Source of the DNA: Lytechinus pictus
Taxonomy: Eukaryota
Assembly (NCBI RefSeq): GCF_037042905.1
Contig: NC_087252.1
Coordinates: forward strand, 3,536,001-3,600,000
DNA: 64,000 nt
Direction: 5' to 3'
Made by a program: the position numbers and the translations under genes. Positions 38,547-64,000 of the stretch are shown piece by piece. How positions within the stretch are numbered: the stretch's first letter is position 1; the number at the start of each line of letters is the position of its first letter. The notes below the pieces were generated by a model. That model did no database searches. It was not told the origin of the DNA and saw nothing but the letters and a program-made list of their open reading frames with translations.

Positions 38547-38663
38547 CTTTCACAAACTCCAGTTGTTTTCTTGTAAACGGTTTTCTGTGTTCAACACCTG
38601 TATTTTCCTTCCCAGATAATCCTGGACCATCTACATTATCATCCAGTGTATCCGTCGTCCAAT
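38547..38663 (-). CDS. Putative internal coding exon of element C, product unknown
   Basis: TTTCATTTAAG acceptor, AAAG|GTAATT donor, 117 nt, phase 1-1, open frame WTTDTLDDNVDGPGLSGKENTGVEHRKPFTRKQLEFVK. Confidence 0.35.
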
Positions 38664-39180: not shown

Positions 39181-39606
39181 TGGCCCGAATTCAAAAAGGT
39201 GGTTTTGAAAACCCCGGTTGAGTCTATGTTTTATGGAGATTTCCTGTATAAATTAAGCTTATTTACAGCGTATATCAAAATATGTCCAATGTTGATGCGC
39301 GCTTTTGTCACAGTGCGCCAAATTGACGCCTGTTGCCGTGGTTATCCACGCTATTTTAATCACGAGTCCACTGTTTTGAATTAATGAGTCCACTCTTCAA
39401 ACAGTGGACTCATGAATAAAATAGCATATCTAACCATGGTAACAGGCGTCAATTTGGCGCACTGCGACAAAAGCGCGCATCAGAATTGGACATTTTTTAT
39501 ACACGCGCCAGATACGTGCTAAATTAAGCGTAATTTATACAGGAAATCTGCATACACCATGGACTCAACCGTGGGTTTTCAAAACCACCTTTGTGAATTC
39601 GGGCCT
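39181..39606. mobile_element. Palindromic PIF/Harbinger-like MITE
   Basis: GGCCCGAATTCAAAAAGGTGGTTTTGAAAACCC...GGGTTTTCAAAACCACCTTTGTGAATTCGGGCC; inverted over almost its whole length. Confidence 0.85.
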
Positions 39607-39689
39607 ATGTGTTTAATGTAAATATGGCGTCTTTACACAAGTGTGTCCCTCCTTTTGAAAGTTACAGCAAATATTTCTAACGGAAATAT

Positions 39690-39865
39690 ATACCGTGTTT
39701 ACACTTAATCGGCTTTTTCATAACGTGTAAAACACGATTAACTTGCATCGGCTCGCGGTTCAGAATCAGCAATTTGCACCACCAAAGTAGTAGGTTCAGA
39801 ACCGCGAGCCGATGCAGAATCGGCTTTTTTACTACGTGTAAACAGAAAGCCGATTCTGCATCTGC
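39690..39865. mobile_element. Small inverted-repeat element
   Basis: TGCATCGGCTCGCGGTTC / GAACCGCGAGCCGATGCA and CGTGTTTACAC / CGTGTAAAC inverted pairs. Confidence 0.55.
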
Positions 39866-42144: not shown

Positions 42145-42365
42145 CTAACTACGAAAACAATATCAAAGAAAATTGTTATCTAACTTACTGTTTAGCGTAT
42201 TCTGCGAATGAATTTGAAGTCGTTGTCCGAATCTGACCTGTGTTCCTTTAGTTTATGATGAATTATAGACGGACTTCTGAACAGCAAAACAGTGGTTGAT
42301 CGGGTTCTTTTTTCAAATATTGCAATTGGCGGTTACATGCGTACGTGCGCGCGCGCGTGCGAGAA
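42145..42365 (-). promoter_or_regulatory. Putative promoter and first non-coding exon of element C
   Basis: Shares GTTATCTAACTTACTGTTTAGC and flanking blocks with 34010-34230; GC repeat upstream; donor at 42188. Confidence 0.5.
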
Positions 42366-43235
42366 CAATACTTACATACATAGAGCGAGCTAGCTAGCAG
42401 CGCAGCCAACACATCCCGATATTGGGGGGGGGGTAAATCAAGACCAAATCAGGGGGAGGGGGCTTCTTAGCCAAGATACATCCCGATATGGGGGAGGAGT
42501 GAATTGCATGTATAAGACCAAATCAGGGGTGTCTTTTTCTTGATTGGTTCTGGGTTGGCAATTAACCATGCAGTCAATTTTTGCCACTGCTTATCCTTTG
42601 AAAGGATCTATGAAAAAAGTAATTTTGCTCAATTTTTTTCTGTTCTATAATTCCATGTCTTTCTTTTTTTTCTTTCCATTGTCTTTTTTTTCTTTTTCCT
42701 TCTTTTTTTCTGTTCAGTCTTTCTTCTTTTCTTTGTCTTGGTCTTTTTCTTTTCTTTTTTTAAATTTATTTTTCTGTTTTTCGATATATATATTTTTTAC
42801 TTATTTCTTTTTTTCCTTTTCTCTCTTTGTTTAATTTCGCTTTTGTTTTGATTGCAATTGAGAATTTCGTTCATTAGATTTTTTTCTGTAACATATTGTA
42901 CTAGCCTGGCGGCAGGGAATTTTGATATACTGGGGGGGGGGGCAAGACAATAACAGACAAATCATTTCAATTAAGCAAGTAATGATCGGCCTAGAATAGC
43001 TCTCCTCTTTATAAACACCATCCATGAGTGAGAAAAAATAATTAAAACACAATTTGTAAAGAAAAAAAAAGAGGAACGGTTTATGATCAAAAGCAGTAGT
43101 AGCGATATATAAATTGGCCGGGAGGGGGCTTTGGTCGTTGCAGACCAAAATCAGGGTTTGCCGATGGGAATTTCAATAGGGGTTGGGGGAGGAAGACAAC
43201 CAACAGTGAATTCATTTTAAGCAAAATAATGACCT

Positions 43236-43452
43236 ATGGGACATTGCAAGAAACTTGCAATTGAACGCAAGTCAATTTCAAACTCCAAAATCAATTGAAA
43301 GTCTTACTTTTCATTGCAAACTTGCAACTGATTTATTGTTTCTTCCATCAATAAATCTAAAAATTGGTTTACTTTAGATGAAATTAGTCTATCACTTGTA
43401 AATTTGCAACCGAATTTTGGGATTGACTGCAAATATTTCCTTGCAACACCCC
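43236..43452. mobile_element. Harbinger-like MITE
   Basis: GGGACATTGCAAGAAA...TTCCTTGCAACACCCC termini. Confidence 0.55.
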
Positions 43453-46400
43453 ATAGCTCTCTTTATAAAAAGTGGCCATAATTAAATAAGAAAATTAATT
43501 TAAAAATAGAACAAAACTTTAAAGAAGGGGGGGGGGCGTTACATAAAAAAACTGTATACCGTACAGATAGGAGAGGTGGTGTGCCGTTCAAATTATACCA
43601 AGAAACAAAAAGAGAAAAGAAAGGATGGTGAAATGTACAATTTTCTATTTAGTACGATACACATCTTGTTCATGCTCTTTAAAACTTGCATGTTTTAATT
43701 TCAAGATTTTTACGGTAAATGATGATTATATTCTTCCCTTTCGGGAGCGGCTGTGAAATAATTTGTCCGTTGATATTAAGGTACAATAAAATCCTTTTTA
43801 TCAAATAAGATTTCATTGACTCCTTTTATTTTTGCACTCAATGCATCAGATATAAATTTAGAAGGTAATATGTACAATTGTAAAATATAACAAATTAATA
43901 GTATTGTATTTTAAGCACTGGTTCAATGATATTTAAACACATATAGGCCTTTTACTTAATAAAGACAAAGACAATTTAAAAGAATGCAACAGACCATGTT
44001 TGCCATCATGAGCGAATGGGCCTGATTTGGGGAAGCTGCTCGCATAAAAGTCACAACTCAAAAATTTTAATAATTCTAATTTTTAATCTTTGATTTTTTT
44101 TTCTTTAAATCTTCGGAATTATGTTATTGGGTAATGCAATTGGGCATACCATTCACCATTAACATAAATAGCATTCATTAGGCACACACCGCTAAGCCAC
44201 AATTGCGTTACAATTATCCAACAACTATCCATTAATTATACCACTATATAGGCACATGCTACTGAGACACCATATTGGGCATATGGTATACCATTACACA
44301 TATACCACTGAGACTATTGGACACCACTGAGACACCATTGGGTTTATGGTATACCATTCACCATACCAATCATATCATTATAGAGGCACATACTACTGAG
44401 ACACCATTGAATACGACTGAGACACCATTGGGTATATGGTATACCATTCACCATACCAATCATACCATTAGAGGCACATATACTACTGAGAGTCTGAGAC
44501 ACCATTGTATACCACTGAGACACCATTGGGTATGGTATACCATTCATCATACCAATCATACCATTAGAGGCACATACTACTGAGACACCATTGTATACCA
44601 CTGAGACACCATTGGTATATGGTATACCATTCACCATACAAATCATACCATTAGAGGCACATACTACTGAGACACCATTGAATACCACTGAGACACCATT
44701 GGGTATATGGTATACCATTCATCATACCAATCATACCATTAGAGGCACATACTACTGAGACACCATTGTACACCACTGAGACACCATTGGGTATGGTATA
44801 CCATTCATCATACCAATCATACCATTAGACACATACCACTGAGACACCATTGGGTATATGGTATACCATTTACCATTAAATAAACTACCAATTACCATTA
44901 AGAACTTACCATTGAAACACCACTTAAATACCATTCGCGTACCATTTACCATTCAGATCACCATTCAACTACCATAAACTACCACTTACCATTAAGAACT
45001 TACCATTGAAACACCAATTAAATACCATTCGCGTACCATTTACCATTCAGATCACCATTCAACTACCATTCGCCACCATTCAAATACCATTGGCGATTTT
45101 TATAAGGGATAACCTATGGGAAATTCAAAGTTGCAGTTTTTTCGCCGTTTTGAAAACGGCTAGAAAAGGGCGAAGAAAGGGAGAATTTTTGGAGAAAAAA
45201 CGGCCAAAAAACGGCTACATTAGGTTTCCTATGTAAACATTGAATTATTATGGAGTGCCATCATTGTTCAATATAAGCGGAGCTATTGATTTCCCCATGA
45301 AAACGGCGAGAAAACGGCGAATGTTAAGGACAAGGATCCTGTTAGAGGAGTGAAGATACTGAGAGAAAACGGCTAATAAACGGAGAGAAAAGGGCTAGAA
45401 AACGGAGACAAAAGGGCGAATGGGTAGTAAGGTGTGTGTTGCATAAAAGGGAGAGAAAAGGGCGAGAAAACGGAGACAAAAGGGCGAATGGGTATAAGGC
45501 GTGCAGTGCATAAACGGAGAGAAAATTGTGAATGGGTCCCAAGGAGTGCATTGCTCGAAAGGGAGAGAAAGTGGCGGGACAACGGAGAGAAAAGGGCAGA
45601 TGAGTAGTAAGAGGTGAGAGCATGAAACAGAAAAAAAGGTTAGAAAAAAAAAGAAAAGGGCGAATGGGTAGTACGAAGTGCATTGCATAAAATGGCAAAA
45701 AGAAATGTGAAAATGCGCGATATGCATTGAGAAAAAGTGACTATAAAACGTAGAATATATATTTGCAATTTTTCTGCCAACTTAAGATTTTCTGAAGAAC
45801 TCCTTTTGGAAATAAGCTCTAGTTTTCATGGGTAATATTTATTAATAATTCTCATTTCATTCATGTAAACAATTTTGTATATTACTTCCGGGGGGGGGTT
45901 ACGCCTTCTTTCATAAATCTTATTTACATATTGTATAGGCCTACTACATTAATTGTTTTATTTCAACATTTTTTATATTTCATGTGGAATTTGATAAAAT
46001 GTCAATCAGATGAAAATAAAATTTAATTGAATTGGATTGAAACTTCTTTGAATACTTTATTTTTTACTCTTATTTTCCCTTCTTCATGGGCGGGAACCCG
46101 AGGGGGACGTGTCCCTCACTTTTTGGAAAGGGGGGCATAATATCAAATCCCCCTCTACTATTTGTGGTCTTTTATGATGGAGAACAATAAATCATTCAAA
46201 GTCGAATGTAGTTAAAGAGCTTAAATTTGCCCTATTTACTAAAAAAATGCAAAATTTCTCACGCCGAATATTGGCACGCAGGTTGTCAGGGAAGTAATCT
46301 ACAAAATTGTATCGTAATTTGTTTCATGCAAATCGCTATTAAGTAATTATGCTAATTCATGCGTAATTAGTAGGCAAAATCATACTTTTTCCTCTAACTC

Positions 46401-49184
46401 CCTTTATAAAGTTTAGAATGTTCTATTTTTTTTTTGTATAAGAACTCTTTGTCTACATGAACAAAATTGTGATATCAGATCAATTTCTTATGTCTTATTG
46501 TTTTTTGCAATTCCGTATGTATTTCTTTTGTTTTTTACTTTTTGTTTTTCATTATTTTTTCAATTAAATTTGTTTGGGACTCTTCTGACAGAGCTGCCAA
46601 CCGTAACGTTTTTTTGTTTTTTCAGCTTTTGTTTTGAGTGAAAATAAGTCTTCTCGTGTTCGCACCGATAACAAGAAGACAAGACAATGGGAATAGAGAT
46701 GGTGTGATGCCGCGATGTTCATTTTATTAAAGTTTGACAATGTTTCACCTTCAAATTTTATTTGTTTCTAAAACATTTTAGTTTTCTAACAATTTTTAAA
46801 TATATTATAAAAAAGACAAATATCAGTAAGATTTTTTTGTTAGATGATTACATTTGTTTTGTTTGCTTGAAGCTTAAATTTTTGTTTCCTCTGTAATTCT
46901 TTCTTCATTTCTTTCTTTATTGCTTTCTTTCGTTCATTTTCTTTCTTTTCTATCTTTTTTCTTCATCCTTTCTTCTATCCTTCCTGCTTGTTTTTTTTTG
47001 TTCTATCTTATTTCAAATCTTTCCTAGCTTTCTTTCCTGATCCTTTTTTTCTTCCCTTCCTTCCTTTTCTTACTTTCCTTTTATTTCCTTTCTTCTTTCT
47101 TTCCTTATTTTCTTTTTGGTTCCCTTCCTCTCCTCTTCTCTTTTCATTCTTTCTGTCATTCCATCCTTTCTTTCATTCTTTTCTTGCTTTCACTCTCGCA
47201 TGATAATGCGAAAGGCACTTTTCATGTTCCTGATGCTGCAGTCACATTTCCACTACCGCGGCTATGGCGAGTCGAAAACAGCCGTTTTATTAATGTGTAG
47301 ATGGTACAAAAAAGTCTTAACGGATGTTTTTGACCCGCCATAATTAAGGGAAATGTGACTGGGCCATTGGTCATGTAAGTAGTATCCAACAAACCACTTC
47401 GATATATTTTAATTCTTGGGGAGGCATACATCAGCCTCCATGATGTCATGAGCTGGTTCGATCTCGTTGATATATTGGTCAAAACTGTGTTTTATAGTGT
47501 TAAAATGCACGTGAGCTACTTCGTTTTATAGGAAAGATAACTTTTAAAATGTATAACAGAAGCTTTGGAGTGAATGCCCTAGCTGCATGTTGCGACTTCA
47601 ATGGGGTCAATTAATTACACGTCTCGCACGTTTTGTGAACAATGGAAGGTGTGAATGAAGGTGTGAAGATTGCAGTGAACACCTAACAATAGGAAGAATC
47701 TGTTTCAATTTAAGTTACGCAATGATCACTTGTGATCTCTCGTTGTGTTTCTTCAACCCGGATGAATCCCCCAAACCACATTGTCCAATCACGGACCTAC
47801 TACAATAGTCAGCGTTTGTGAAAACGGAATGATAATCGAGGATGATAGTGTATTTTTGATGTAATTAAATAATGATAGTGGTGATAATGAAGGGGGATAA
47901 AGAGGAAGAAGAGGACGAGAATGATGGTGGTGGTAATGATTTTGATGGCGGTGATGATGATGACGATAACATAATTATTTTTTTTCTTGATAAACATATT
48001 GTGTGTGTAAATTTATAAAAAAGGAGGAAATTTTCTTTTTAAGAATTATGATATAAAAAGGACAAAGGACAAAGAAAAAAGATTAGACTTATATTATAAT
48101 TTCTGAAACAACTGGGTCTGGAAAAAAGACTTTTTCTCGAAAGGGTGCGGCCATTCCCACTTCGCAAACGCAAACGATCGTAACAAGCCCAAGATAAAGA
48201 AAATAATACAGTACAGTATAATTGAATACATTTAGCACATTGCAGCATCTTTCCAAGAGAAAAATGATGAAAAAAAAATCATATTTATGAAGTATCAATT
48301 TTCTAAACATAACAAAATACGGTGAAAATGAATTAATTATAGATTTTTGTTAATTCTCTTATGACAGCAGAAAACACGTGTTTGGTATACGAACCACAAG
48401 TGACAAAAGATTTCACACGCGAAGAGGGGCGAAATCGGAAGCTGATAATTTTTTTTTCAGATATAGGCCGATTGATTTCAGCCATTTTAAAATTCTTATT
48501 TTTAGTAGGTATATGTGATTACTTTATGGTGGAATTTTGATGAATTTTAAGAATAAGTTTGATATGATTGATGATTGAAAAAAACTGAAGATTGTTCGGT
48601 ATTATACACTACCATACATTACGGTAGTATGGATGTTATTCCAAGTTGTCTCAAGTACATGCACTCACCCGCTTGTGTGGTACAACATTATTGCTGATTT
48701 GTACTTGTTTAGTCCTATTTATTACTAGTTTTATTACTTTTTTGTGCCTTTCGTCATTTATTAGCAGTTTTGAAGGTTTTTTTTACCGATGGGGGTATTC
48801 ACCCTTATATTAGCCGTTTTGTAGCCGTTTTCCACAAGGGAGGTATTCGCCCTTCATTAGCCGTTTTGTAGCCGTTTTCCACAAGGAAGGTATTCGCCAT
48901 TTATTAGCCGTTTTGTAGCCGTTTCCCACAATGGAGGTATTCGCCCTTTATTAGCCGTTTTGTAGCCGTTTTCTCGAAGGGAGGTATTCACTATTTTATT
49001 CTGATGAAAATCATTGTTGCATACAGTTAGCTTTCCATAGTCGGTACACTTTTTTTGTCGCCGTTTTTTAGCCGTTTTCTAGCCCTTTTCTAGCCGTTTC
49101 CTATTGGGAAAAAGGGAGAAAAAACGGAGAAAAAACAGAGAAAAAACGGCGAATCACCCAAACCAGTCTGGCTCACTGTGGGGT

Positions 49185-49875
49185 GAACGAAAGAATGAAG
49201 GAAAGAAAGAAAAGGCGGAAGAAAAGAGATGAAAAGAGAAGAAAAAAAATTAATGAAGGAAAAAATAAAAAAAGAATAAAAGAAAGTTAGAATAAAAAAG
49301 AGAAAAAAAGTTTCCGCCATTCTTTGAATTTAATACAGAAAGAGAGAAAAAGAAAGAAATGGAAGAAGAATACATGTGTGAAAGACAAAATAAAGGAGAG
49401 AAAGAAAAAAAGTAAGAAAAAGGAGGAGGAAAGAAAGAATGAAGGAAAGAAAAATGTTTTCTTCATTCTTTGAAAGAAAGAAACAAAGAAAGAAGGAAAC
49501 AGTAAGGGAGGAGGGAAGGAAGAAATTAAGGGAGGGAGAGAAATAATAAGGGAAAGAATTATAAGGAAAAATAAAATAAAGAATGAAAGAAAGAGAGGGA
49601 GGAAGAATGAAGTGAGGAAGGAGTGAAAACATAATGGAAGTAGAGAAAGAATTAAAATAAAAAGGAGAGGAAGGGAGGGGAAGAAAAAAGTTGAAAGAAA
49701 GAATGGAGGAAATAAAAAAAGGAAATTTGATAAAGAAGACGGGTAAGAAAAAGGGAGGAAAAAAATGAACACAGAGAGAGAGAAAGGATCAGGAAAGGCA
49801 AATAGGAAATAGAGATAGATGGAACAAAAACGGGCAAGCAGGAAGGATAGAAGGATGAAGAAAGAAGGATAGAAA
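49185..49875. repeat. Polypurine (GA-rich) low-complexity tract inside the hAT element
   Basis: Almost only A and G; explains the Phe/Leu/Ser-rich minus-strand ORFs. Confidence 0.9.
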
Positions 49876-50589
49876 AGTTCAAACTTCAAGCAAAAAATTC
49901 CAATCATCTAACAAAAATCATAATGATATTTGGTGTTTTTAAAATATATTTTTAAAAAATGTTTTAGAAATGAATAAAATTTCAAAGTGATTCTTTTTTT
50001 ACTTAAAAATTAGATGAAACATCGCGGCATTATATAGAACAAGACTCAAAACGAAAGTTGAAACAACTAGATCTAGTTATGAAAACTCAATAACTTGTTC
50101 CTCCGATTACATCCCCAAATCAGTAATCTGAGAACCCATAATATAATTATACAAATTTCCCGCCGATTTTGTGATTATTTTGGCATGTTTCATTGTGTTT
50201 GGTGTAGAGAATCTGCTCCGATCCTACATGCCTTGCTAGTACTAGCCTGTCACACAAAGGCAGGAGGCCAGTTCGATTGGGTTAGCAAGAAAATCACCTT
50301 GCAAAAGTTTATTTATCGATTTTATTGTTGTCTCTGCTTCGTCATCTGTTGGTTATTTTAATGAAAATTCGTCACTTTTAAATATATTTTGTTCAATATT
50401 CTGAAATACGGGACAAATAGGCGTCCCGGGAAGGGTTTGTCGGGACGCCGGGACAAAGAAGCAAAATACGGGACAATCCCGGGAAATACGGAACGTCTGG
50501 TCACCCTGCCCCCCCTCCGGCGAATCAATTTTTAATTTTGATAGGGGGTGAGCTGAGGGGGGTCTAAGTTATGGGTGTGAAAACTTTTT

Positions 50590-51560
50590 TTGTGTGGTAT
50601 TTCTGATTTTCAACAGAAGGGCAATAACACACAAATACCACATATTTGAATTGACAGTACTATACAATGGGCTATGACGTAACATGCTTTCATGTGGTAA
50701 TTTTGATTTACCACAGCAGTATAATTCCACACAAATACCACATATTTGAATTGACACACAATGGCATCATGTGGTATTGCATTCATGCGGTAAGTTTGAT
50801 TTACCGCAGAGCATAACACCACAAAAATACCACATATTTGAATTTACATTACCACACAATGGGCTAATGTGGAAACATGCTTTCATATGTGGTAATTTTG
50901 ATTTACCACAGCAGTATAAAAATGCCACACAAATACCACATATTTGAATTTACGTTACCACACAATGGCATCATGAGGTAAAGCATTCATGTGGTAATTT
51001 TGTTTTACCACAGAAGTATACTTGCAATACACAAATACCATTACCACACAATGGCATCATGAGGTAACATGCATTCCTGTGGTAATTTTGATTTACCACA
51101 GAAATATAACAATACCACACATACCACATATTTGAATTTACATTACCACACAATGGCATCATGAGGTAACATGCATTCATGTGGTAATTTTGATTTACCA
51201 CAGAAATATAACAATACCACACAAATACCACATATTTGAATTTACATTACCACACAATGGCATCATGAGGTAACATGCATTCATGTGGTAATTTTGATTT
51301 ACCACAGAAATATAACAATACCACACAAATACCACATATTTGAATTTACATTACCACACAATGGCATATGAGGTAACATGCATTCATGTGGTAATTTTGA
51401 TTTACCACAGAAGTACCACATAGACAACAAATTACCACAGCCACCAGCTGACGTTACCACACAAGGATATGGAAAATTACCACAGATGTTCATGTGGTAA
51501 CCTACATTCATGTGGTAATTCGTGTGGTAAAGCCGGGTACCACACAGATATACCACACGA
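50590..51560. repeat. Right subterminal repeat array of element A, including a ~104-bp tandem unit
   Basis: TTACCACACAATGGCAT...ATTTGAATTTACA recurs at about 51041, 51143, 51248 and 51351. Confidence 0.9.
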
Positions 51561-51574
51561 CATTTTCGTAAGGG

Positions 51575-51787
51575 TGGAGGGAACATCCTGAGTGTCTCGC
51601 AGACGACCTTGTCCATGTACGGCATGGATGCAACAGAACTGTATCCCACAGAATCCCTGGAGGGGGTCATCTTGTCCACCTCATCGATGAGCTTCTCCTG
51701 GACATGAGAGTTCCTGGCTAATGCATAGAAGATGAACCCAAGGAGTGTGGTGGTCGTCTCGTAACCAGCAATGAAAAACGTTACAGC
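51575..51787 (-). CDS. Cytochrome P450 (clan 3, CYP3A-like), I/K-helix exon, interrupted by element A
   Basis: CCTCACAG acceptor, then AVTFFIAGYETTTTLLGFIFYALARNSHVQEKLIDEVDKMTPSRDSVGYSSVASMPYMDKVVCETLRMFPP (AGYETT and ExxR motifs). Upstream exons lie beyond the window. Confidence 0.95.
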
Positions 51788-52389
51788 CTGTGAGGTAAAA
51801 TGGGGAAATTGGAATCAGGGTACTAATGGATAATTCGTTTTTCATTCCCGATTTTCGTAGAGCAAAAACGGAAGTCAACCTCATGGATTGGTCTGTGAAA
51901 ACACAAAAACGAAATCACAACGAGAAAAACCCCGTTGTGATTTCATTTTTGGAGATCAAAAACAGAAGAATGAAATCAGAAATACTTTTGGTCCTCTCTG
52001 ATACCTCATTCTATACCTGTGTTTGTTATATATCAAAAACAAAATCAGAACACGCTTTCTACCCCCTGATTCTGTTTGGAAAAACGCAGACAGCGAAAAC
52101 GAAATCAGGTACTCGCATTCCACTTCTTGCTCTGATTTTGTCTTTCGCGCACAGCCAACAGCCATATCGTTATATAGACGTGCACGCAGTACAGTGCATG
52201 CATGATACGACCATGAAGCTATTACGTAAGAGCTTCATGTTACGTCTACGTGCAACAAAAATTCACGTTAACATTTTCGGACCTTCACAGACAGTGGCGT
52301 AGCTAGGATTTTTTTCCCCGGGGGGCACTGGGGGTCCTTGCTTTTTCAGGGGGGGGGGGACACCGGCCATTTTTGGCGGTGTGTGTGTA

Positions 52390-54262
52390 ATAAAGTAATT
52401 TTTCAAGGGGCCCCCAGGGATATCCCGACGGCCTAGCCAGGGTAACCACGTAACCTAACTTGTAGAGCTCGACACGGGCAACCATGCAGATAAACACTGA
52501 CTTGACCCGGTGCATGCACATTAAAGGGGCTGAAATTAACAAAATTAAAGGGAATAAAGGGCTATTTATCGCATTTTTTTAATTAAAATAAAGTAATTTT
52601 TCAAGGGGCCCCAATGGATATCCCAACGCCCTAGCCAGGGTGACCAGGTATCCTAACTTGTAGAACCCGACTCGGGCAATCAGATAAACACTAGCTTGAC
52701 CCGGCGCACGCACATCTAGGGGGCTCAAATTAACAAAATTAAAGGGAATAAAGGGCTATTTATCACATTTTTAAAAATTTAAATAAAGGATTTTTTCAAG
52801 GGGCCCCCAGGGATATCTCGATGGCTTAGCCAGGGTAACCACGTATCCTAACTTGTAGAACCCGACTCGGGCAACCAGGTAAACACTGACTTGACCCGGC
52901 GCACGCACATCTAGGGGGCTCAAATTAACAAAATTAAAGGGAATAAAGGGCTATTTATCACATTTTTAAAAATTTAAATAAAGGATTTTTTCAAGGGGCC
53001 CCCAGGGATATCTCGATGGCTTAGCCAGGGTAACCACGTATCCTAACTTGTAGAAGTTGACTCGAGCAACCAGATAAACACTAGCTTGACCCGGCGCATG
53101 CACATTTAGGGGGCTCAAATTAACAAAATTAAAGGGAATAAAGGGCTATTTATCGCATTTTTTAAATTAAAATAAAGTAAATTTTCAAGGGCCCCCCAGG
53201 GATATCCCGACGGCCTAGCCAGGGCAACCACGTACCCTAACTTGTAGAACTCGACTCGGGCAACCAGATAAACACTGATTTGATCCGGCGCATGCACATT
53301 TAGGGGGCTCAAATTAACAAAATTAAAGGGAATAAAGGGCTATTTATCGCATTTTTAAAATTAAAATAAAGTATTTTTTCAAGGGGCCCCCAGGGATATT
53401 CCAACAGCCTAGACAGGGTAACCATGTATCCTAACTTGTAGAAATCGACTCGGGCAACCAGGTAAACACTGACTTGACCCGGCGCATGCACATCTAGGGG
53501 GCTCAAATTAACAAAATTAAAGGGAATAAAGGGCTATTTATCACATTTTTAAAAATTTAAATAAAGGATTTTTTCAAGGGGCCCCCAGGGATATCTCGAT
53601 GGCTTAGCCAGGGTAACCACGTATCCTAACTTGTAGAACTTGACTCGAGCAACCAGATAAACACTAGCTTGACCCGGCGCATGCACATTTAGGGGGCTCA
53701 AATTAACAAAATTAAAGGGAATAAAGGGCTATTTATCGCATTTTTTAAATTAAAATAAAGTAAATTTTCAAGGGCCCCCCAGGGATATCCCGACGGCCTA
53801 GCCAGGGCAACCACGTACCCTAACTTGTAGAACTCGACTCGGGCAACCAGATAAACACTGATTTGATCCGGCGCATGCACATTTAGGGGGCTCAAATTAA
53901 CAAAATTAAAGGGAATAAAGGGCTATTTATCGCATTTTTAAAATTAAAATAAAGTATTTTTTCAAGGGGCCCCCAGGGATATTCCAACAGCCTAGACAGG
54001 GTAACCATGTATCCTAACTTGTAGAAATCGACTCGGGCAACCAGGTAAACACTGACTTGACCCGGCGCATGCACATCTAGGGGGCTCAAATTAACAAAAT
54101 TAAAGGGAATAAAGGGCTATTTATCACATTTTTAAAAATTTAAATAAAGGATTTTTTCAAGGGGCCCCCAGGGATATCTCGATGGCTTAGCCAGGGTAAC
54201 CACGTATCCTAACTTGTAGAACTTGACTCGAGCAACCAGATAAACACTAGCTTGACCCGGCG
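52390..54262. repeat. ~194-bp satellite array, first block
   Basis: AAATTAACAAAATTAAAGGGAATAAAGGGC recurs every 194-195 bp. Confidence 0.95.
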
Positions 54263-54601
54263 GCGAAATTATTTTTCCCACCGAGTTCTGGACCAACATA
54301 TGAATATTCATGACTTGCGTCTTCGGATTGAGAGTACGCATGCGCGTGGACTTGGCCTCGACCAGTGCCGATCGTAAGCATTCACGTTGCTCAGAATGAA
54401 TTGGCATCGTCAAATTACCGGTACCCTTACATAGTGACATAGGCTTAGATCTATATATATATATATATATATCCAATCCTTAAACACTTAATAAACTAGC
54501 TGCCATTAATGGCAAGACATGTGCTAGGGTAGGGCTAGCTTAGGCTAGCGCATTAACTTTACCTCAAATCTGGACCTGTCTAATTAATGCCTAGTACTAA
54601 T

Positions 54602-57166
54602 CAGTGTTGTAGTGCCTTGGCCTTAAGGCGCCTTGATGCCTATCTACTTTTTCAAAGCCTTGGCCTTGAGAGGGCCTTGGCCTTGAGGATTTTGAGCCTT
54701 GAAATTTTAAGGCATTTTCAAGGCTTTTTCAAGGCATTTTGTATTTTGTACTTTCATTTGTTTTAAATAAGTAATTATAAATGTTTCAATTGTTTTTTTT
54801 TTTTTTTATATATTTAACAACACTAATGGTCAATACTACCAATCACCAGTAACAGTAGCAGCAGCAGTAGTAAGTGCACTAGCAGTGTCATCAATTGTAA
54901 TTGTCACCATTATCAAGAAATTCAAACAAAGAATACATCAGTTTTGAAAAATAGCATTGTGTATTGGTAATGTGTTGTAATCATATGATGATAATGACAG
55001 TAAATAATAATGGTCATGATCAAGATAATAGTGCTTTGATGACAAGAATAATTTTTACATCTGACTGCAATTTTTGACAACAATTTCATACTTTAAACAT
55101 AGCTAACTCTAAAGAACGATAACAAGGTTGATTTCTATTCCATTAGGATTTTCCTTGTATTATTTTCTTTGGCCAACAAGAATGTTTTAAGTCTTAATGA
55201 TATTCTGAAAAGATTTGGTAAACTTGAACACAGTCTCCAATTTTGTCATCCAAATGGGTTATGTCAATGGCATGATGAGCCAGAAACTTTGAGGGGCCAA
55301 GCATGGCATATATAGAGCAAAATTTCTGTCAAAAAAAATAAGAAAGCGATTGAAGCGAGCGAGTGAACAAAATTTGTCCCCCTCTTTCTATAAGAAAAGC
55401 TAATTTTGCAATAGATTGTTTAAAAAATAATAGCACATTTACTCCATCTTTTCCTTTCCCTTTTCCCCCTTGTCTAAGTTTATTCTTGGTGGTGGGACTT
55501 TTTCTTCTCTCTATCTCTCTTCTAAATTTTATATTTGTTTTGGGTCAGATTGTCAAAAAAAGGGGGAAAAAATGTTTACTTCTTTTTAATCATATATCGT
55601 TCAACATTGAATCTCATTTCTCTACAGTTTCAAGGAAATAAACAACGTATTTGTTTTTGTGTCAATATGGTTTCAAGAAATAATAATTAACAAAAAATAA
55701 TTTAATAATTAATAATCATTAATATCATCAATAAGTATTAATAATTAATGATTAATTAACTGTTTAATAAAAGTGGTTGTAAGCAGAAAAAAATATGAAA
55801 ACTGACAAGAGTCCTAAAAATGACTCATTTTCAGTTTATGCATTTGAAAATTTTAGCTTGCGCTTTGTGCTCTCTTGCCCCCCCCCCCCCAAAAAAATGC
55901 CCTTTTTAAAAAAGAAATACCTTCTTTAATTAGGTTCGAAAATCACAGATTTTGAATCGCGCTTGCATCAATTATTGTTTAGTACAGTACTGCTAATGGT
56001 TACAAAAATGTATAGAATGTTGCTTTATGGTTGAAATATCACAAATATTTGGCTCGCTTCCTGCACTCGCATCAATTATTGTACTCGTTCTCTTCCCGTT
56101 CACAAAAAAATGCTTAGAATGTCCAGTTTTCAGGTTGGAATATTACAAATTTTTGAGCTCGCGCTTTGCGCTCGCATTATTTTTTATCGGTGAGTTATGT
56201 ATCTTATTTAAAATGCAGTAATTAACTGCTTAATTAACTGCTTCCTTTACTGGTCAGTATATAAAAAGAATTAGCGAGGGCAAAGTTATTTTTAAGTTCG
56301 ATACACATCTTTTTCATGATTACAAAACCAGCTCAGAATAAAATAATTTCCATGTCTTATTACACGACATGTCAAGAAGTTTGAGCTGGTGATTCGCGCT
56401 GGCAACATCGCGCAAGGAAATTTCAACAATGATTAGCCCCATAATTGACCATAAATCAAGTTTTACAACATCAGAATTGATTTTTTTTTTCAAAACCGCT
56501 TGCTCGCTATGCTTTCTCGCTGAGAAGTAAAACCTAGAGCAAAATATCTATCTTATAATTAAAAATCATATTAGAAAGCCTTTGCTCAACTTAATTTCTA
56601 TAAAACACACAATTACTTCACGCAGTTCATAATCTCATTTTGAAAATACATGTATCTGTTTGCACAAAAAAACTCATTTTGATAAATGGGTGCCTTTTTG
56701 GCGTTGACCCCCCCCCCCCATAATAATTTTCTGCTGCCCCTGTCCCAGGGAGTGGAGAAAAACATACGTTGAGAATGCCAGGATCAGATGACCGTGGTAA
56801 TAATAATTATTGCAATGTAAATCGCCTATAGAAAAATTATGGATTATGTGTACACAGGTAACTATATCATTATTTTAATATGTCTCTATCATGAAATTAT
56901 TTTTGTTTTAAACGTACAAAGGTTAATTTTTTTCTCGCTCAGTCCCCTCGCTCACATACATTTTACCATGTGTGATGTCTGCCGCCTAAGTATTGTTAGT
57001 TCATTGTTCTGTATATCGTAAGTTTGAAATGCCTTGGCCTTGAGGTTTTCAGGCCTTGGCCTTGGGTTTCCATGCCTTGGCCTTTGCCTTTGGTATTGAA
57101 GCCTTGGCCTTGGGTATTAAAGCCTTGGCCTTGGCCTTGGAGGTTTGAGCCTTGACTACAACACTG
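54602..57166. mobile_element. hAT-like element with GCCTTG subterminal repeats
   Basis: TIR CAGTGTTGTAGT at both ends; absent from the opposite MULE arm. Confidence 0.85.
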
Positions 57167-57372
57167 AATAGCCGACTAATGCCATGGTTAACCTCGAACT
57201 GGTTAATTCCGAACTTCACGTTTAATTAGGTTTAGACAAATATTAGCTTATTTGCCATGGTTTAATATGTCTAGTCCGTATACAAAACCAGTCCTAGATC
57301 TAAAAAAAAATATCTTAGTTCTAGTCTAGTCTCTATATCTAGACTCTGATCTACGCTGTATCAGCATGGAAC

Positions 57373-57691
57373 CACTAGTGTACCAAGGGGGGGGGGGAAG
57401 ACTGTCCCTCTGACGAGTCACAACTGATTCAGGGGACGTGCCCCCTTTGAGAAGCCAAATTAATAATTTGTAATGTAAAAATGCAATGAAAAAGACGTAT
57501 GTCCCCTTTTTTGAACGTGAAGATCTTTTTTTTTTTTTTTTGCTTGCCAATTTTTTTTTCAGCTAAGAAATCCATAATTTGGGGTGAAGACCCTTTTTTT
57601 GGGGGGGAGGGGGGCTTGTCACATTTTTTCGCGGACGAAATATCCTCTAAAAAATTTGCCCCCCTTTTGGAAAATCCTAGGTACACCAGTG
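57373..57691. mobile_element. hAT-like MITE at the centre of the MULE
   Basis: CACTAGTGTACC...GGTACACCAGTG; CATGGAAC on both sides (the right copy is offset by 4 nt). Confidence 0.65.
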
Positions 57692-58500
57692 CGTGCATGG
57701 AACGTATTCTAACGTCAGGCACAAATTAACGTCAGTGATCTTGATCTGATCCCCGTCTTCACCCAAAATTAAGGATTTCGTAGCTGAAAAAAATTTGACA
57801 AGAAAAAAAAAGATCTTCACGTTCAAAAGAGGGGACATACGTCTTTTTTCGTTGCATTTTGACATTACAAATTAGGCTTCTCAAGGGGGGGCACGTCCCC
57901 TGGATCAGTTGTGACTCGTCAGGGGGGCAGTCTGCCCCCCCCCCCCTTTGGTACACTAGTGGTTCCATGCTGATAGCGCGTAGATCAGAGTCTAGATCTA
58001 GAGACTAGACTAGAACTAAGATATTTATTTTAGATCTAGGACTGGTTCTCTATACGGACTAGACATATTAAACCATGGTAAATAAGCTAATATTGGTCCA
58101 AACCTAATCAAACGTAAAGTTCGGAATTAACAAGTTCGAAGTTAACCATGGCATTAGTCGGCTATTCCTATTAGTATTAGGCATTAGACAGGTCCAGATT
58201 TGAGGTTAATGCGCTAGCCTAAGCTAGCCCTACCCTAGCACATGTCTTGCCATTAATGGCAGCTAGTTTATTAAGTGTTTAAGGATTGGATATATATATA
58301 TATATAGATAGATCTAAGCCTATAATAAGACCTATGTCACTATGTAAGGGTACCGGTAATTTGACGATGCCAATTCATTCTGACCAACGTGAATGCTTAC
58401 GATCGGCACTGGTCCACGCGCATGCGTACTCTCAATCCGAAGACGCAAGTCATGAATATTCATATGTCGGTCCAGAACTCGGTGGGAAAAATAATTTCGC

Positions 58501-59483
58501 GACCCGGCGCATGCACATTAAGGGGGCTCAAATTAACAAAATTAAAGGGAATAAAGGGCTATTTATCGCATTTTTTAAATTAAAATAAAGTAAATTTTCA
58601 AGGGGCCCCCAGGGATATCCCGACAGCCTAGCCAGGGTAACCACGTATCCTAACTTGGAGAAATTGACTCGGGCAACCAGATAAACACTGATTTGACCCG
58701 GTGCATGCACATTTAGGGGGCTCAAATTAACAAAATTAAAGGGAATAAAGGGATATTTATCGCATTTTTAGAATTAAAATAAAGTATTTTTTCAAGGGGC
58801 CCCCAGGGATATCCTGACGGCCTAGCCAGGGTAACCACGTATCCTAACTTGTAGAACTTGACTAGGGCGATCAGATAAAAACTTATTTGACCCGGCGCAT
58901 GCACATTTAGGGGGCTAAAATTAACAAAATTAAAGGGAATAAAGGGCTATTTATCGCATTTTTTAAATTAAAATAAAGTATTTTTTCAAGGGGCCCCCAG
59001 GGATATCCCGACGGCCTAGCCAGGGTAACCACGTATCCTAACTTGTAGAACTTGACTCGGGCGATCAGATAAAAACTGACTTGACCCGGTGCATGCACAT
59101 TTAGGGGGCTAAAATTAACAAAATTAAAGGGAATAAAGGGCTATTTATCGCATTTTTTAAATTAAAATAAAGTAAATTTTCAAGGGGCCCCCAGGGATAT
59201 CCCGACGGCCTAGCCAGGGCAACCACGTACCCTAACTTGTAGAACTCGACTCGGGCAACCAGATAAACACTGATTTGATCCGGCGCATGCACATTTAGGG
59301 GGCTCAAATTAACAAAATTAAAGGGAATAAAGGGCTATTTATCGCATTTTTAAAATTAAAATAAAGTATTTTTTCAAGGGGCCCCCAGGGATATTCCAAC
59401 GGCCTAGCCAGGGTAACCATGTATCCTAACTTGTAGAACTCGACTCGGGCAACCAGATACACATTAGGTTGACCCGTTGCATG
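58501..59483. repeat. ~194-bp satellite array, second block (same orientation as the first)
   Basis: The array resumes exactly at the MULE TSD; five units. Confidence 0.95.
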
Positions 59484-61322
59484 CAGTGGCGTAACAGGGG
59501 TCGGTGGCTGGGGGGGGGGGGGCAAGAACCAAGAATTTCCCGGTCACATCATAAAGCAGGCAATGGAGTCATAAGGCAAAAATTTTGAGGGGGCGTTATT
59601 ATGGAGTATCGGACAAAAATATATATTTATGCGAGCGAGCGGAGCGTTCGAGCAAAATTTTTGACATTTTAATGGCAAAAATGAGTGGGGTCCGGGGTAG
59701 AGCCCCGGAACCTCTTGATATTAAAGCCATTTTAAACCTTACAGATGGCCACTAATTTTAATCAAATCGCGTGTATATTTATATAGCTTTCACACTACAC
59801 ATAAATTCAGTGCTGCAGTTGTGTACCGTAATCATCTAAATATTTTGAGGGGGTCTACCATAGCAAATGTGGGAAAATTTGTAAAAAGTCGGCAGCGAGC
59901 GAAACGAGCCAGAAGAAAAATGGCCTTTTGAAATAAAATTGAATTGTGTGATAGACTTTTACATCACAGCAAATATCATGTCTTATATTTTTTTTATTTC
60001 ATTCATCTCATTTCGCTGCCTCCTTCATATTCTTTTATTTCCCCTTGGCTGTGGAACCAATCCCCCCCCCCCCCGTACGCCAGTGCTTCAACGCAAAGGT
60101 TAATGCAGGAAGGGTCCATATAGCTTTGGATATTTAGCAAGTTTATAATAGACTTTCATACGAAATTATGCTATATACCATCCATCTTTTTTTCCCGCTC
60201 GTTATCTTCAATCCTCAGCAGCCCGGTAGTAATATCTTGTCCCTTTTTTTTATTTTCCAATTTAGATTTTGCCTCATTCCATTCTACCTTCACTCGCTTT
60301 TGTTTGCCTTTATCATCTTTAATTCATTTCCCTGTCTTTTAAAATTATTTTGAAATTAAATTCTAATTATGTGATAGTCGCTTTGGAAATTTAGTCGATC
60401 AATCAATCAATCAATCAATGTAGTTGTGTACCGTAATCATCCAAATATTTTGAGGGGGCACACCATAGCAAATGTGGGAAAATTTGTTTTAAATAAAAGT
60501 CGCCAGCGAGCGAAGCGAGCCAGAAGAAAAATGGCATTTTGAAATAAAATTATAATTATGTGATAGATTTTTACATCATAGCAAATGTCATGTCTTATAT
60601 ATTTTTTAAAATATTTTATTCATCTCATTACGCTGCCTCCTTCATTTTCTTTTATTTCCCCTTGGCTGTGGAACCCCCCCCCCCCCCCGTACGCCAGTGC
60701 TTCAACGGAAGGATCCATATAGGGGGCCGTTATAGAACCCTTTAAAGGTTACAGGTTAAGAGCCTCCACTGCACGGGGTCTTGACTCTTGGACAGAGCCC
60801 CCGGTAGCTTTGGATATTTAGCAAGTTTATAATAGACTTTCATACGAAATTATGCTATATACCATCCATCTTTTTTCCCTCTCGTTTACTTCAATCCTCA
60901 GCAGCCCATCTTGTCCCTTTTTTTTATTTTCCAATTTAGATTTTGCCTCATTCCATTCTACCTTAATTTCCCGCTTTTGTTTGCCTTTTTGTCATCTTTA
61001 ATTCATTTCCCTGTCATACTAATCATGCTAATGTATGTGTATATCTGGGAAAATTGTTCTTCCTCACATGTTCTTCTTTCCTTCCTTTTTCCAAATTCTT
61101 TCCGTTTTCCCTTTTTTTTCTTAGTTTTATTTTCCCTTACCCTTTTCTATTCCCCTCCCTTTTCCCCCTTTTATCTTTTTTCCTTTCCTTTTCCTTTCCC
61201 TTTCTTTCTTTCTCCCCTTATTTTTTCCTTTTCCCGGTTTTTTTTCTTAACATTTTCACGGTGAACTCCGCCAGGGGGAAGGGGGGCAGCTTGCCCCCCC
61301 CCCCCCGCCTGTTACGCAACTG
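59484..61322. mobile_element. hAT-like element with 8-bp TSD
   Basis: GTTGCATG|CAGTGGCGTAACAGG...CCTGTTACGCAACTG|GTTGCATG; internal duplication of ~59815-60335 at ~60420-61015. Confidence 0.9.
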
Positions 61323-63082
61323 GTTGCATGCTCATTATGGGGGCTAAAATTAACAAAAGTAAAGGAATACGGGCTTTTTCAAGCATGGGGAACCACGGTC
61401 CTGACTTTTTCCCCCATCCCTTAGTGCTGCCGATGGGTAGAGTAAAAAACAACAAGGAAAGAGAGAAGACAAAATAGAAGAGAGAGAAGCGAAAGAGAGA
61501 GATAGGAAAGAAAAGGAGGGGGAAAGGGAGAGAAAGAGAAGGGAGAACGGAGGGGTCATATCATTGTATGAACAGGATATTTTATGATTATGCCCCGAGC
61601 ATTAGTGCGAAGCTCAATGCGAGATAAGAACAAAATAGAGGGGGCACACCATGGCGCACGCAGCAAAAATTTGCTTAATAATAAGTCTCCAGCGAGCGAA
61701 GCGAGCGAGAATAAAAATCACCTTCAATTTTGAGATTGATTTTGACATGGTATGCAGAAAATGACATATCTTTCCTCTTCCTTTTCTTTCTTTCCTTTTA
61801 TCATTTTTTTTTTCTCGGTTGTAGAACTTTTTTTTTTTTTTTTTTTTTTTTTTTGGGGGGGGGGCAGTGCTATGCGGTTCGGGTCCGGGGCAATGACGGT
61901 ACTAGGGTTTTTAACCTAGGAGGAGGCAAACAAACATTTTGGGGCCGGGGGGATGGCACACATTTTTAAAAAAAATCGAGCGAGAAGCGCGAGCTAATTT
62001 TATCGCGAATGCAGTCCCTACTGATTTAAAAAGGGAACTGTTAAGAATCAGCTGTTTGCATTAATTGGGTCATGAAGATGATATCTCACCAAATGAATAA
62101 TGCGAGCGCGAAGCGTGAGCTGAAAATTTTTGATATCCGGGATGATACCTGGCCGTTCTAAGCTTTTTTTTAATTATAAAATGAATGGCTATCTAATTCG
62201 CTGAAAATAAATCCTCTATGGAAATTATGAATACGCAGGATATGTATCTCGCTAAAACAAATAATGAAAACTCTAATAACATTTGATTTTTAAGCCCCAT
62301 GTGAACAGATAATCATTAATAACTGCGAGCGCGTATCGCGAGCTACATTTTGAATTTTATATAATGGCCTGAAAGATTTATGTTCGTGACCAAAATTGTT
62401 GGGACCTAAATGCTAACGGTGAATGGATGAGAATGTTTTTAAAATTTAAAGAACAAAAAACATTTTTGGAGTATTATGACAACGTTTACTATACATTTTG
62501 TTTCTTCAAATTTCGGGGGGGGGGGGCAACTCACTGGGGACTCCCCATTCGGTGGCGCCACTGGTCTGGGGCGGAGCCCCCAGAACCTCGTGATATTTTT
62601 AAACATTGCAGATGGCCATTTTTTTTTTAAATCAAATCGCGGGTACATACATCACATATTATATTAAGTTGCTAATTAATTGAATTGAAGGCTACACGTG
62701 CAAAAGAAAATGTCTCATGAGAATTATTCGAAGATTTGAGGAGCTTTATACTCATATCTTATATTTTGACAATACGTTTTCTATCGATATACGCCCCCAT
62801 CTTTTCTCCAAGAGATGACGATCTACAACAGAAGGCTGAAGATATTCATTCGACCCAACCCATTCTCATTTTTTTAATTTGTAAGTTGATTACAAAAAAG
62901 AATATGTATAATGATTAGACTGATTCTAGAAACAGAGAATGGGCAACCATTGAACATATTTTGTGCAAATAAAAGAAAAATACAGGTGTCACTCAGCTTT
63001 CGGAACTATTTTATTGGCGGAGGATTTAGGACTGAGTATAATATATGAATAAGATCTGCTCATGAGATGCTTTAACCAGTTG

Positions 63083-63415
63083 CCCCCTAAATGTGCATGC
63101 GCCGGGTCAAGCTAGTGTTTACCTGGTTGCCCGAGTCGAGTTCTACAAGTTAGGATACGTGGTTACCCTGGCTAGGCCGTCGGGATATCCCTGGTGGCCC
63201 CTTGAAAAATTATTTTTTTTTTTTTTTAAAAATGCGATAAATAGCCCTTTATTCCCTTTAATTTTGTTAAATTTAGCCCTCTAAATGTGCATGCGCCGGG
63301 TCAAGTCAGTGTTTATCTGATTGCCCGAGTCAAGTTCTACAAGTTAGGATACGTGGTTACCCTGGCTAGGCCGTCGGGATATCCCTGGGGGCCCCTTGAA
63401 AAATTACTTTATTAC
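63083..63415. repeat. Inverted copies (~1.7 units) of the 194-bp satellite in the right arm
   Basis: Reverse complement of the units at 52390-52720. Confidence 0.9.
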
Positions 63416-64000
63416 ACACACACCGCAAAAAATGGCCGGTGCCCCCCCCCCCCTGAAAAAGCAAGGACCCCCCAGTCCCCCCCCCCCCCCCCCCGGGAAA
63501 AAAATCCTAGCTACGCCATTGTCTGCGAAGGTCCGAAAACGCTGGAAAAAGCCATGTTAAAGTGAATTTTTGTTGCACGTGGTCGTATCATGCATGCACT
63601 GCACTGCGTGCACGTGTGTTGGCTGTTGGCTGTGCGAAAGACGAAATCAGAGAGCAGGAAGTGGAAAGCGAACTACCCGATTTCGTTTTCGCTGTCTGCG
63701 TTTTTCCAAACAGAATCAGGGGGGTAGAAAGCCTGTTCTGATTTTGTTTTTAATATATAACAAACACAGGTATAGAATGAGGTATCAGAGAGGACCAAAA
63801 GTATTTCTGATTTCATTCTTCTGTTTTTGATCTCCAAAAATGAAATCACAACGGGGTTTTTCTCGTTGTGATTTCGTTTTTGTGTTTTCAAAGACCAATC
63901 CATGAGGTTGACTTCCGTTTTTGCTCTACGAAAATCAGGAATGAAAAACGAATTATCCATTAGTACCCTGATTAATTGGACACCTAAGTGATGTTGACAA

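What the first reader, a model, noticed from the sequence alone, without database searches (positions are those of the whole stretch)
51807..63979. 12.2-kb foldback-like element with AATC termini and a 6-bp TSD, 25 nt from the CYP splice acceptor
Seen in sequence: ~900-bp inverted arms made of a ~480-bp unique outer domain, a CAGTGGCGTAGC hAT-like end and satellite units; TSD AATTGG; no coding sequence. Established knowledge: long TIRs with 6-bp TSDs are a Polinton/Maverick trait, but Polintons typically end in AG...CT. Modular arms with tandem repeats recall Foldback and sea-urchin TU elements. Inference: a non-autonomous family I cannot assign to a superfamily. The insertion may also displace the intron branch point, so one 213-bp exon segment lies between 26-kb and 12-kb insertions.
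Basis: partly seen in the sequence, partly recalled or inferred. Interest (0 to 1): 0.7.

Follow-up and report, generated by a model that had tools for sequence, protein, structure and literature searches.

The report
Inflated foldback transposon, unassigned AATC ends
A real, gene-less jumping DNA element in a sea-urchin detoxification gene, probably a small element swollen to 12 kb by satellite repeats and by other elements landing inside it; its layout is a known kind, but its end sequence fits none of the transposon groups I could compare it with.

Summary
The element is real: 51813-63973 (12,161 bp), AATC...GATT ends, exact 6-bp duplication AATTGG, 25 nt from the acceptor of a sea-urchin CYP3A-like exon. 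Reads show the AATC end at two or more other sites with different flanks, so it marks a multi-copy family; only one target duplication could be measured. The true TIR is about 350 bp. One contig suggests a ~0.8-kb short form, so the long arms probably arose by inverted recruitment of internal sequence, as in Galileo. Polinton, IS3EU/GingerRoot, Ginger and Crypton end signatures are not met; hAT6 ends were untestable. Best guess for the enzyme: an IS3EU-like relative (about 40%). Branch-point loss is not supported: the element end supplies a CTGAT at -28, and exon-bounded contigs fit use of the acceptor. This allele is already split by a 26-kb exonic insertion. The scan earlier noted similar satellite-armed and 6-bp-TSD foldbacks elsewhere in this genome, but nothing with this sequence.

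The parts
51807..51812 (+). Left copy of 6-bp target-site duplication AATTGG
63974..63979 (+). Right copy of 6-bp target-site duplication AATTGG
51813..63973 (.). Whole non-autonomous foldback-type element, 12,161 bp, AATC...GATT ends
   Evidence: same terminus with other flanks
51813..52164 (+). Left TIR proper (about 352 bp) with a repeated AAAACGAAATCAG-like motif in alternating orientation; the terminus starts at the motif's AATCAG core
   Evidence: 9 motif cores in 330 bp against a shuffle mean of 0.83, 0 of 1000 shuffles reach it (pattern chosen after seeing the arm); hairpin fold z -3.99; inner limit
63620..63973 (-). Right TIR proper (about 354 bp)
52178..52291 (+). Inverted copy of the inner spacer, inferred to be recruited into the left arm
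   Evidence: geometry of X2 record 12 (inference)
63522..63619 (-). Inner spacer, inferred to be the original spacer of a ~0.8-kb short form
   Evidence: (X2 record 12)
52292..52388 (+). 97-bp end of a separate high-copy CAGTGGCG (hAT-like) family, cut off and joined to the satellite
   Evidence: other flanks before 52292 in 4 of 4 runs and far higher depth; no TSD
63414..63521 (-). Inverted copy of the same hAT-like end with the same satellite junction
52389..61379 (+). 194-bp satellite array, about 14.9 units once the two nested inserts are removed; units 4-6 and 7-9 differ by 0-1 bases (recent 3-unit duplication)
63082..63413 (-). 1.7 satellite units of the right arm
54263..58500 (.). Nested MULE-like foldback, 4,238 bp, G...C ends, ~770-bp arms, 9-bp TSD GACCCGGCG, inserted in a satellite unit
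   Evidence: MULE label from recalled TSD/end rule
54602..57166 (.). 2,565-bp CAGTGTTG...CAACACTG element inside the left arm of the MULE-like insert; only a 3-bp direct repeat (AAT) flanks it
59484..61322 (.). Nested hAT-like element, 1,839 bp, CAG...CTG ends, 8-bp TSD GTTGCATG, inserted in the last satellite unit
   Evidence: CAG-end rule recalled, 8-bp TSD per PMC12730594
61380..63081 (.). 1.7-kb non-coding middle with fragments of dispersed repeats
51814..51818 (-). Branch-point-like CTGAT (A at -28 from the acceptor) supplied by the element end
   Evidence: such a motif occurs in 16% of random 20-mers of the window, so it may be chance
51575..51787 (-). 213-bp segment of a CYP3A-like exon; acceptor AG at 51789-51788
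   Evidence: (100% over 71 aa to P0002)
25487..51574 (.). Neighbouring 26,088-bp CCC...GGG insertion with 2-bp TSD that splits this exon 10 nt before its donor (context, not part of the element)

Best explanation
A non-autonomous cut-and-paste DNA transposon of a multi-copy sea-urchin family with AATC ends. Shown: ends, one 6-bp TSD, other copies of the end, nested inserts, no gene found. Inferred steps: (1) the family's basic form is a small element of about 0.8 kb, two ~350-bp TIRs around a ~100-bp spacer, with repeated AATCAG-core motifs as transposase binding sites; (2) a CAGTGG (hAT-like) element with a 194-bp satellite entered at the spacer edge; (3) repair or conversion between the arms copied spacer, hAT-like end and first satellite units in inverted form to the other side, giving ~900-bp modular arms and erasing the hAT TSD; (4) a transposase acting in trans with a 6-bp stagger placed the element in the CYP intron, probably after step 3 (about 65%); (5) the left array grew by multi-unit duplication and took a MULE-like and a hAT-like insertion, at times I cannot order against step 4. 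My best guess for the enzyme is an integrase-type DDE transposase related to IS3EU/GingerRoot with a changed terminal base (about 40%); membership is not shown. The insertion probably leaves the splice acceptor usable.
For: Exact TSD and symmetric ends. Same terminus after other flanks: CAAAAC in X2 and X21, CATCTA in 14 X21 reads; a DNA-run contig of another organism (X9 record 17) begins exactly at 51813. Shorter, diverged subfamilies keep the terminus (joints 51843 to 51946 and 51843 to 51971). X2 record 12 runs from the left arm (to 52106, then GGA and about 21 more letters) straight into an inverted stretch with the 15-base insertion peculiar to the right arm, starting at the base next to the hAT-like end; predicted length 770 bp. 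Both arms carry the same hAT-like end and the same satellite junction, without TSD. Outer arms differ at 5 of 298 aligned bases, inner arms at 24 of 418, Fisher p 0.0065, which fits arm extension before the last jump. Precedent for TIR extension by recruiting internal sequence: Galileo, PMC3573991 passages; for satellite growth in one arm: Tetris, PMC4079207 passages. IS3EU/GingerRoot make 6-bp TSDs with no clear base preference; fungal IS3EU ends are TAYGG, and AAT differs from TAT only at base 1.
Against: Only one TSD was measured (n = 1). No genome was held, so no copy count and no autonomous partner. The short form rests on one contig of depth 5-6.5 whose letters I could not read; it could be a deletion derivative. 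No record among the 20 rows shown in table 8 bridges 52291/52292 (71 more not shown), so the long composite is not shown to be multi-copy. Later conversion could also explain the more similar outer arms. IS3EU/GingerRoot ends are TA..TA or TG..CA in the papers read, and this element fails that test; its bases 4-5 (CA) also differ from fungal TAYGG. The letters beyond the exon edge at 51787 were not displayed, X1 is not on record as RNA, and its haplotype is not shown to carry the 12-kb element.
Confidence: 0.72

Rival explanations
1. Grew in place: a ~0.8-kb AATC element jumped into the intron first, and arm extension, satellite growth and all nested insertions happened afterwards at this locus; the 12-kb form never moved.
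For: No contig shown joins the AATC arm to the hAT-like end (20 rows shown, 71 not). Recent array duplication. Long spacing between TIRs lowers transposition (PMC6431247 passage).
Against: Inner arms are more diverged (24 of 418) than outer arms (5 of 298), p 0.0065; growth after insertion predicts the opposite unless the outer arms were converted later.
Confidence: 0.3
2. Mobilised by a hAT6-type transposase (hAT lineage with 6-bp TSDs).
For: hAT6 makes 6-bp TSDs and sits among animal hAT/Blackjack families (PMC12730594 passage). Bases 4-9 read CAGGGT, like hAT ends (recalled). Subterminal motifs in both orientations are hAT-like (recalled).
Against: The end begins with AA, not the usual CA/TA of hAT (recalled). 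With CAGGG taken as the end there is no direct repeat of 4 bp or more (register scan), and AAT is constant at all flanks seen. hAT6 end sequences were not in any paper I read.
Confidence: 0.15
3. Non-autonomous Polinton/Maverick derivative.
For: 6-bp TSD and TIRs of 46-1,447 bp are Maverick traits (PMC8097293; PMC8969392).
Against: Ends lack AG and the short terminal repeats (AGT)2, (AG)3, (AC)3A needed for protein-primed replication. No Polinton gene remnant among the ORFs scanned. Viral-contig scan gave 2 chance hits only.
Confidence: 0.06
4. Crypton-type element moved by a tyrosine recombinase, with the 6-bp repeat as recombination core.
For: Cryptons have 4- or 6-bp terminal direct repeats and occur in sea urchins (PMC3212892 passages).
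Against: Cryptons lack TIRs and their direct repeat is similar across copies; here the TIRs are long and the flanking 6-mers differ: AATTGG, CCAATT, CAAAAC, CATCTA.
Confidence: 0.03
5. No single element: two separate copies in opposite orientation, or an assembly artefact, with a chance 6-bp match.
For: No read or contig shown spans the whole element or clearly shows the empty site; one X21 read at 51758 fits either allele.
Against: Chance about 4e-4; arms share a three-part junction over ~900 bp; nested inserts have perfect TSDs.
Confidence: 0.03

Closest known systems
Tetris with its MITE DAIBAM, Drosophila virilis (PMC4079207; passages read)
   Same: Gene-less foldback; arms of an outer flanking domain plus ~200-bp tandem repeats; array expansion inside the element; a short relative sharing the outer TIR.
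   Different: Tetris has 8-10-bp TSDs; here 6 bp. Here the satellite comes in behind a foreign hAT-like end, and half the length is nested elements.
Galileo copies with extended TIRs, Drosophila mojavensis (PMC3573991; passages read)
   Same: Internal sequence recruited as an inverted copy to lengthen the TIRs in non-autonomous copies; repeated binding sites in the TIR.
   Different: Galileo is a P-superfamily element (abstract) with a known transposase; its ends and TSD differ (recalled).
IS3EU / GingerRoot (PMC10045372, PMC6839031, PMC12730594; passages read)
   Same: 6-bp TSD without clear base preference; TIRs; found in animals; sizes to 12.9 kb.
   Different: Ends are TA..TA or TG..CA; here AA..TT. 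GingerRoot TIRs are 100-150 bp; here about 350 bp, extended to about 900. No transposase to compare.
Polinton/Maverick (PMC8097293; passages read)
   Same: 6-bp TSD; TIR length range.
   Different: No AG end, no terminal micro-repeat, no genes.
TU elements of Strongylocentrotus purpuratus (recalled; only the citation of a sea-urchin foldback was seen)
   Same: Sea-urchin foldbacks with modular arms and variable middles.
   Different: As recalled, TU has an 8-bp TSD and short tandem repeats in the outer domain; here 6 bp, with the tandem array inside. Not tested against TU sequence.

Membership tests
Foldback-type element (structural class) | Long modular inverted arms with tandem repeats, flanked by a TSD | tested here: met
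   description
Foldback-type element (structural class) | Non-coding middle | tested here: met
   0 Pfam families for 6 of 6 element ORFs scanned; 0 Rfam; longest ORF without Atlas support. Short spliced exons would be missed.
Polinton/Maverick | 6-bp TSD | tested here: met
   one locus
Polinton/Maverick | AG end or terminal micro-repeat (AGT)2, (AG)3, (AC)3A | tested here: not met
Polinton/Maverick | pPolB, integrase, capsid genes or remnants | tested here: not met
   (not required of a non-autonomous copy)
IS3EU/GingerRoot | 6-bp TSD | tested here: met
   one locus; definition
IS3EU/GingerRoot | TA..TA or TG..CA termini | tested here: not met
   A register giving a TA end on the right only fails: the base before AATC is G, T, C or A at different ends and a DNA contig starts at 51813
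IS3EU/GingerRoot | Integrase-related DDE transposase in an autonomous partner | not testable with these tools
   no genome held
hAT6 | 6-bp TSD | tested here: met
   definition
hAT6 | hAT6 terminal signature and hAT transposase | not testable with these tools
   ends not given in the passages read; Repbase and Dfam not available
Ginger1/Ginger2 | TGTNR ends, 4-5-bp TSD | tested here: not met
   (PMC6839031 gives 6 bp for Ginger2; the ends still fail)
Crypton | No TIR; short terminal direct repeat similar across copies | tested here: not met
CMCT (EnSpm/Mirage/Chapaev/Transib) | CA..TG ends in most cases, 2-5-bp TSD | tested here: not met
TU elements | Sequence similarity and TSD length of TU | not tested
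   no TU sequence or paper held (one search listed only the Tetris paper)

The most novel reading that the evidence does not exclude
The AATC...GATT ends with a 6-bp TSD and an array of inverted AATCAG-core motifs are the signature of an undescribed lineage or superfamily of animal cut-and-paste transposases, active in sea urchins, which can still move 6-12-kb composites whose arms were rebuilt from a foreign transposon end and a satellite.
Probability: 0.2. Interest if true: 0.7.

Novelty: new variant of a known kind. Interest (0 to 1): 0.4.

Why it matters
The architecture is known and seems common in this genome. What is open is the enzyme: non-autonomous DNA transposons are classified by their ends plus TSD (PMC7805219 passage), and this pair matched none of the 6-bp-TSD groups whose ends I could read. 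One genome search would either extend the end signature of IS3EU or hAT6 or reveal a new transposase lineage. The locus is also a readable record of how a small element becomes a foldback and a satellite carrier, and the CYP3A-like allele with two large insertions is a candidate loss-of-function allele in a model sea urchin.

Tried and rejected
Whole-genome search: none held. Terminal motif scans: 25-mer in metagenomes 0 hits; 17-mer 23 loci, none extending into the arm (6-11 of the next 30 bases match in 23 of 23); 18-mer in viral contigs 2 loci, chance; 21-mer in prokaryote genomes 0. No third copy of the end in the window. Other boundary registers, including a 7-bp repeat, a TA end and a CAGGG end: rejected because they break end symmetry or lack a TSD and because of the flanks. 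The 158-aa ORF in the left arm: no Pfam, Atlas 0.78 or less, frame differs in the right arm. One X21 read starting at 51758: depth fits both the filled and the empty allele, not used. No RNA holder was listed; this blank is not evidence. Branch point as an adaptation: rejected, the motif is found in 16% of random 20-mers. Not-in-print searches: sea urchin + DNA transposon + 6-bp target site duplication, 0 papers; IS3EU + termini + sea urchin, 0; some searches listed papers, none describing AATC ends in what I saw. The library lacks Repbase Reports and most subscription journals; one review of superfamily signatures was not held. Supplements of PMC6839031 and PMC10045372 were listed but not opened and may hold further end sequences. 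Earlier-finding look-ups by sequence gave 0 look-alikes.
Full report
Observation. The element spans 51813-63973 (12,161 bp). It begins AATCAGGGTAC and ends with the reverse complement, and AATTGG lies directly outside both ends; 6 is the only exact repeat length from 2 to 12 at these boundaries. A chance 6-bp match has a probability of about 4e-4. The arms align over 912 and 892 bp at 86.4% with gaps. The element starts 25 nt from the last intron base of a cytochrome P450 gene on the minus strand. The 71-aa exon segment is identical to P0002, named by its source as Lytechinus pictus CYP3A8-like, so the host is a Lytechinus sea urchin. I found no gene in the element: 0 Pfam families for 6 of 6 ORFs scanned, 0 Rfam matches, and the longest ATG ORF, 158 aa, gave Atlas scores of 0.78 or less. 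Short spliced exons would have been missed.

The end is a family terminus. No genome was held, so I laid 4 of the 23 listed runs on 51430-52380. Of the loose-end rows, 19 were shown and 21 were not. The terminus follows the flank CAAAAC in X2 and in 6 reads of X21 (a shorter variant), and CATCTA in 14 reads of X21; X1 has two further contigs with a mixed consensus that may be the same loci. In X9, a probable DNA run of another organism, a contig begins exactly at 51813. So at least two other insertion sites exist and the base before AATC varies (G, T, C, A). This rules out a register with a TA end on the right, which the window alone would allow. Joints from 51843 to 51946 and to 51971 show shorter, diverged subfamilies. 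Only the window's TSD could be measured.

Anatomy. The first 330 bp hold 9 AATC(AG/AC/GG) cores on both strands against a shuffle mean of 0.83, and 0 of 1000 shuffles reach 9 (I chose the pattern after seeing the arm). They form inverted pairs (fold z -3.99). I read them as transposase binding sites (inference). Left and right arms part at about position 352, which is also where the X9 relative goes its own way, so the true TIR is about 350 bp. The CAGTGGCG end at 52292 belongs to another, much more abundant family: other flanks precede it in 4 of 4 runs. In the window it has no TSD, and both arms carry the same 97-bp piece with the same junction to the satellite. The two are therefore copies of one end, not the two ends of a hAT element. 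Inside lie about 14.9 units of a 194-bp satellite on the left and 1.7 on the right. Two insertions with perfect TSDs interrupt the left array: 54263-58500 (9 bp, MULE-like, itself a foldback holding a 2,565-bp element) and 59484-61322 (8 bp, hAT-like). They account for 6,094 bp; the remainder is 6,067 bp. Units 4-6 and 7-9 differ by 0-1 bases, so the array grew recently.

How it most likely arose. X2 record 12 (303 nt, depth 5-6.5) runs along the left arm to 52106, then GGA and about 21 further letters, then enters an inverted stretch starting at the base next to the hAT-like end, with the 15-base gap that marks the right-arm version (geometry checked). That is a short form of about 770 bp with the spacer present once. 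I infer a parent of about 0.8 kb, entry of a CAGTGG element with satellite at the spacer edge, and an inverted copy of spacer, foreign end and first satellite units written into the left side by repair or conversion between the arms. Galileo copies extend their TIRs in this way (PMC3573991, passages), and Tetris grows satellites in its arms (PMC4079207, passages). The outer arms differ at 5 of 298 bases and the inner arms at 24 of 418 (p 0.0065), which favours arm extension before the last jump. Against this: the short form is one contig whose letters I could not read and may be a deletion product; no record among the 20 rows shown bridges 52291/52292 (71 not shown); later conversion could have evened out the outer arms.

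Which enzyme. Groups with 6-bp repeats in the passages I read: Polinton (ends AG, (AGT)2, (AG)3, (AC)3A; PMC8097293, PMC6839031), IS3EU/GingerRoot (TA..TA or TG..CA; PMC10045372; fungal TAYGG, PMC12730594), hAT6 (ends not given), Crypton (no TIRs; PMC3212892, PMC8969392). Ginger ends are TGTNR (PMC2836005). AATC matches none of the signatures tested. I therefore file it under no superfamily. As a working guess I give an IS3EU-like relative about 40% (6-bp stagger, variable target, AAT one base from TAT; unchecked earlier notes report IS3EU elements and 6-bp-TSD foldbacks in this genome, and raised my odds without being evidence), an undescribed lineage about 20%, hAT6 15%, Polinton 6%, the rest to others. 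Repbase and Dfam could not be searched, so the family may already be catalogued as an unclassified 6-bp-TSD element.

Effect on the gene. The AG and the pyrimidine tract lie in the 25 host bases and are untouched. The element end places CTGAT with its A at -28; the last intron of the same gene has CTGAT at -29; the reconstructed empty site, only 46 nt because the window ends, has no YTRAY (consensus recalled). The motif occurs in 16% of random 20-mers, so I claim compatibility, not adaptation. X1 record 1 (1,218 nt) matches 51430-51787 with 0 differences, includes the junction with the 26-kb insertion and leaves the window exactly at the exon edge; X2 record 10 leaves at both edges. Both fit splicing at this acceptor, though the departing letters were not shown, neither run is on record as RNA, and X1's haplotype is not shown to carry the 12-kb element. 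The 26,088-bp insertion at 25487-51574 has a 2-bp TSD and splits the exon 10 nt before its donor; read-through stops 162 codons after the exon start. This allele is probably inactive for that reason, whatever the 12-kb element does.

What led nowhere. Motif scans of metagenomes, viral contigs and prokaryote genomes gave only chance hits or none. One read near the junction fits both alleles. Literature searches for this end or for such a sea-urchin family found nothing (lists). All papers were seen as passages from term searches; PMC6431247, PMC7805219 and PMC2817418 likewise; two supplement lists were seen but not opened. TU-element details, the hAT end rule and the MULE TSD rule are recalled. 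Earlier-finding look-ups found no look-alike of this sequence but several satellite-armed foldbacks elsewhere in the genome.

Verdict. A real foldback-type non-autonomous transposon, a known architecture, with an end-plus-TSD signature that stays unassigned. Interest 0.4; new variant of a known kind. If the signature marks a new transposase lineage (about 20%), interest would be 0.7, and one genome search can test it.

Noticed in passing
window 25487-51574: 26,088-bp insertion with CCC...GGG ends, 2-bp TSD and TTACCACA-type subterminal repeats (EnSpm/CACTA-like, label recalled) inside the CYP exon, 10 nt before its donor. The database protein P0002 reads through this point uninterrupted, and X2 record 10 leaves the window at both exon edges, while X1 record 1 reads on into the insertion with 0 differences. 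Read-through meets a stop 162 codons after the exon start, before the heme-binding exon.
   Followed up: partly
window 1047-4217 (-) and 15980-18941 (+): Two LINE-like endonuclease + reverse-transcriptase reading frames (by eye): one open for 1,056 aa, the other in two overlapping frames of 209 and 809 aa. Not scanned.
   Followed up: no
window 52977-54137: Satellite units 4-6 and 7-9 differ by 1, 0 and 0 bases, and unit 13 differs from unit 5 by 1: a very recent three-unit duplication.
   Followed up: partly
window 54602-57166: Element with CAGTGTTGTAGT ends flanked only by AAT; the matching place in the other MULE-like arm has 3 extra bases, possibly an excision or repair footprint.
   Followed up: no
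window 24480-24620 (-): This CYP exon differs from P0002 at 3 residues within the exon while the neighbouring exons match fully, so the window and the database protein are different alleles or close paralogues.
   Followed up: no
X9 record 18, behind 52167: In a second organism the left arm continues into a different interior after arm position 355, a possible handle on a longer or autonomous relative.
   Followed up: no
window 59814-60336 and 60419-61015: Internal duplication (88-90% identity) inside the nested hAT-like element.
   Followed up: no
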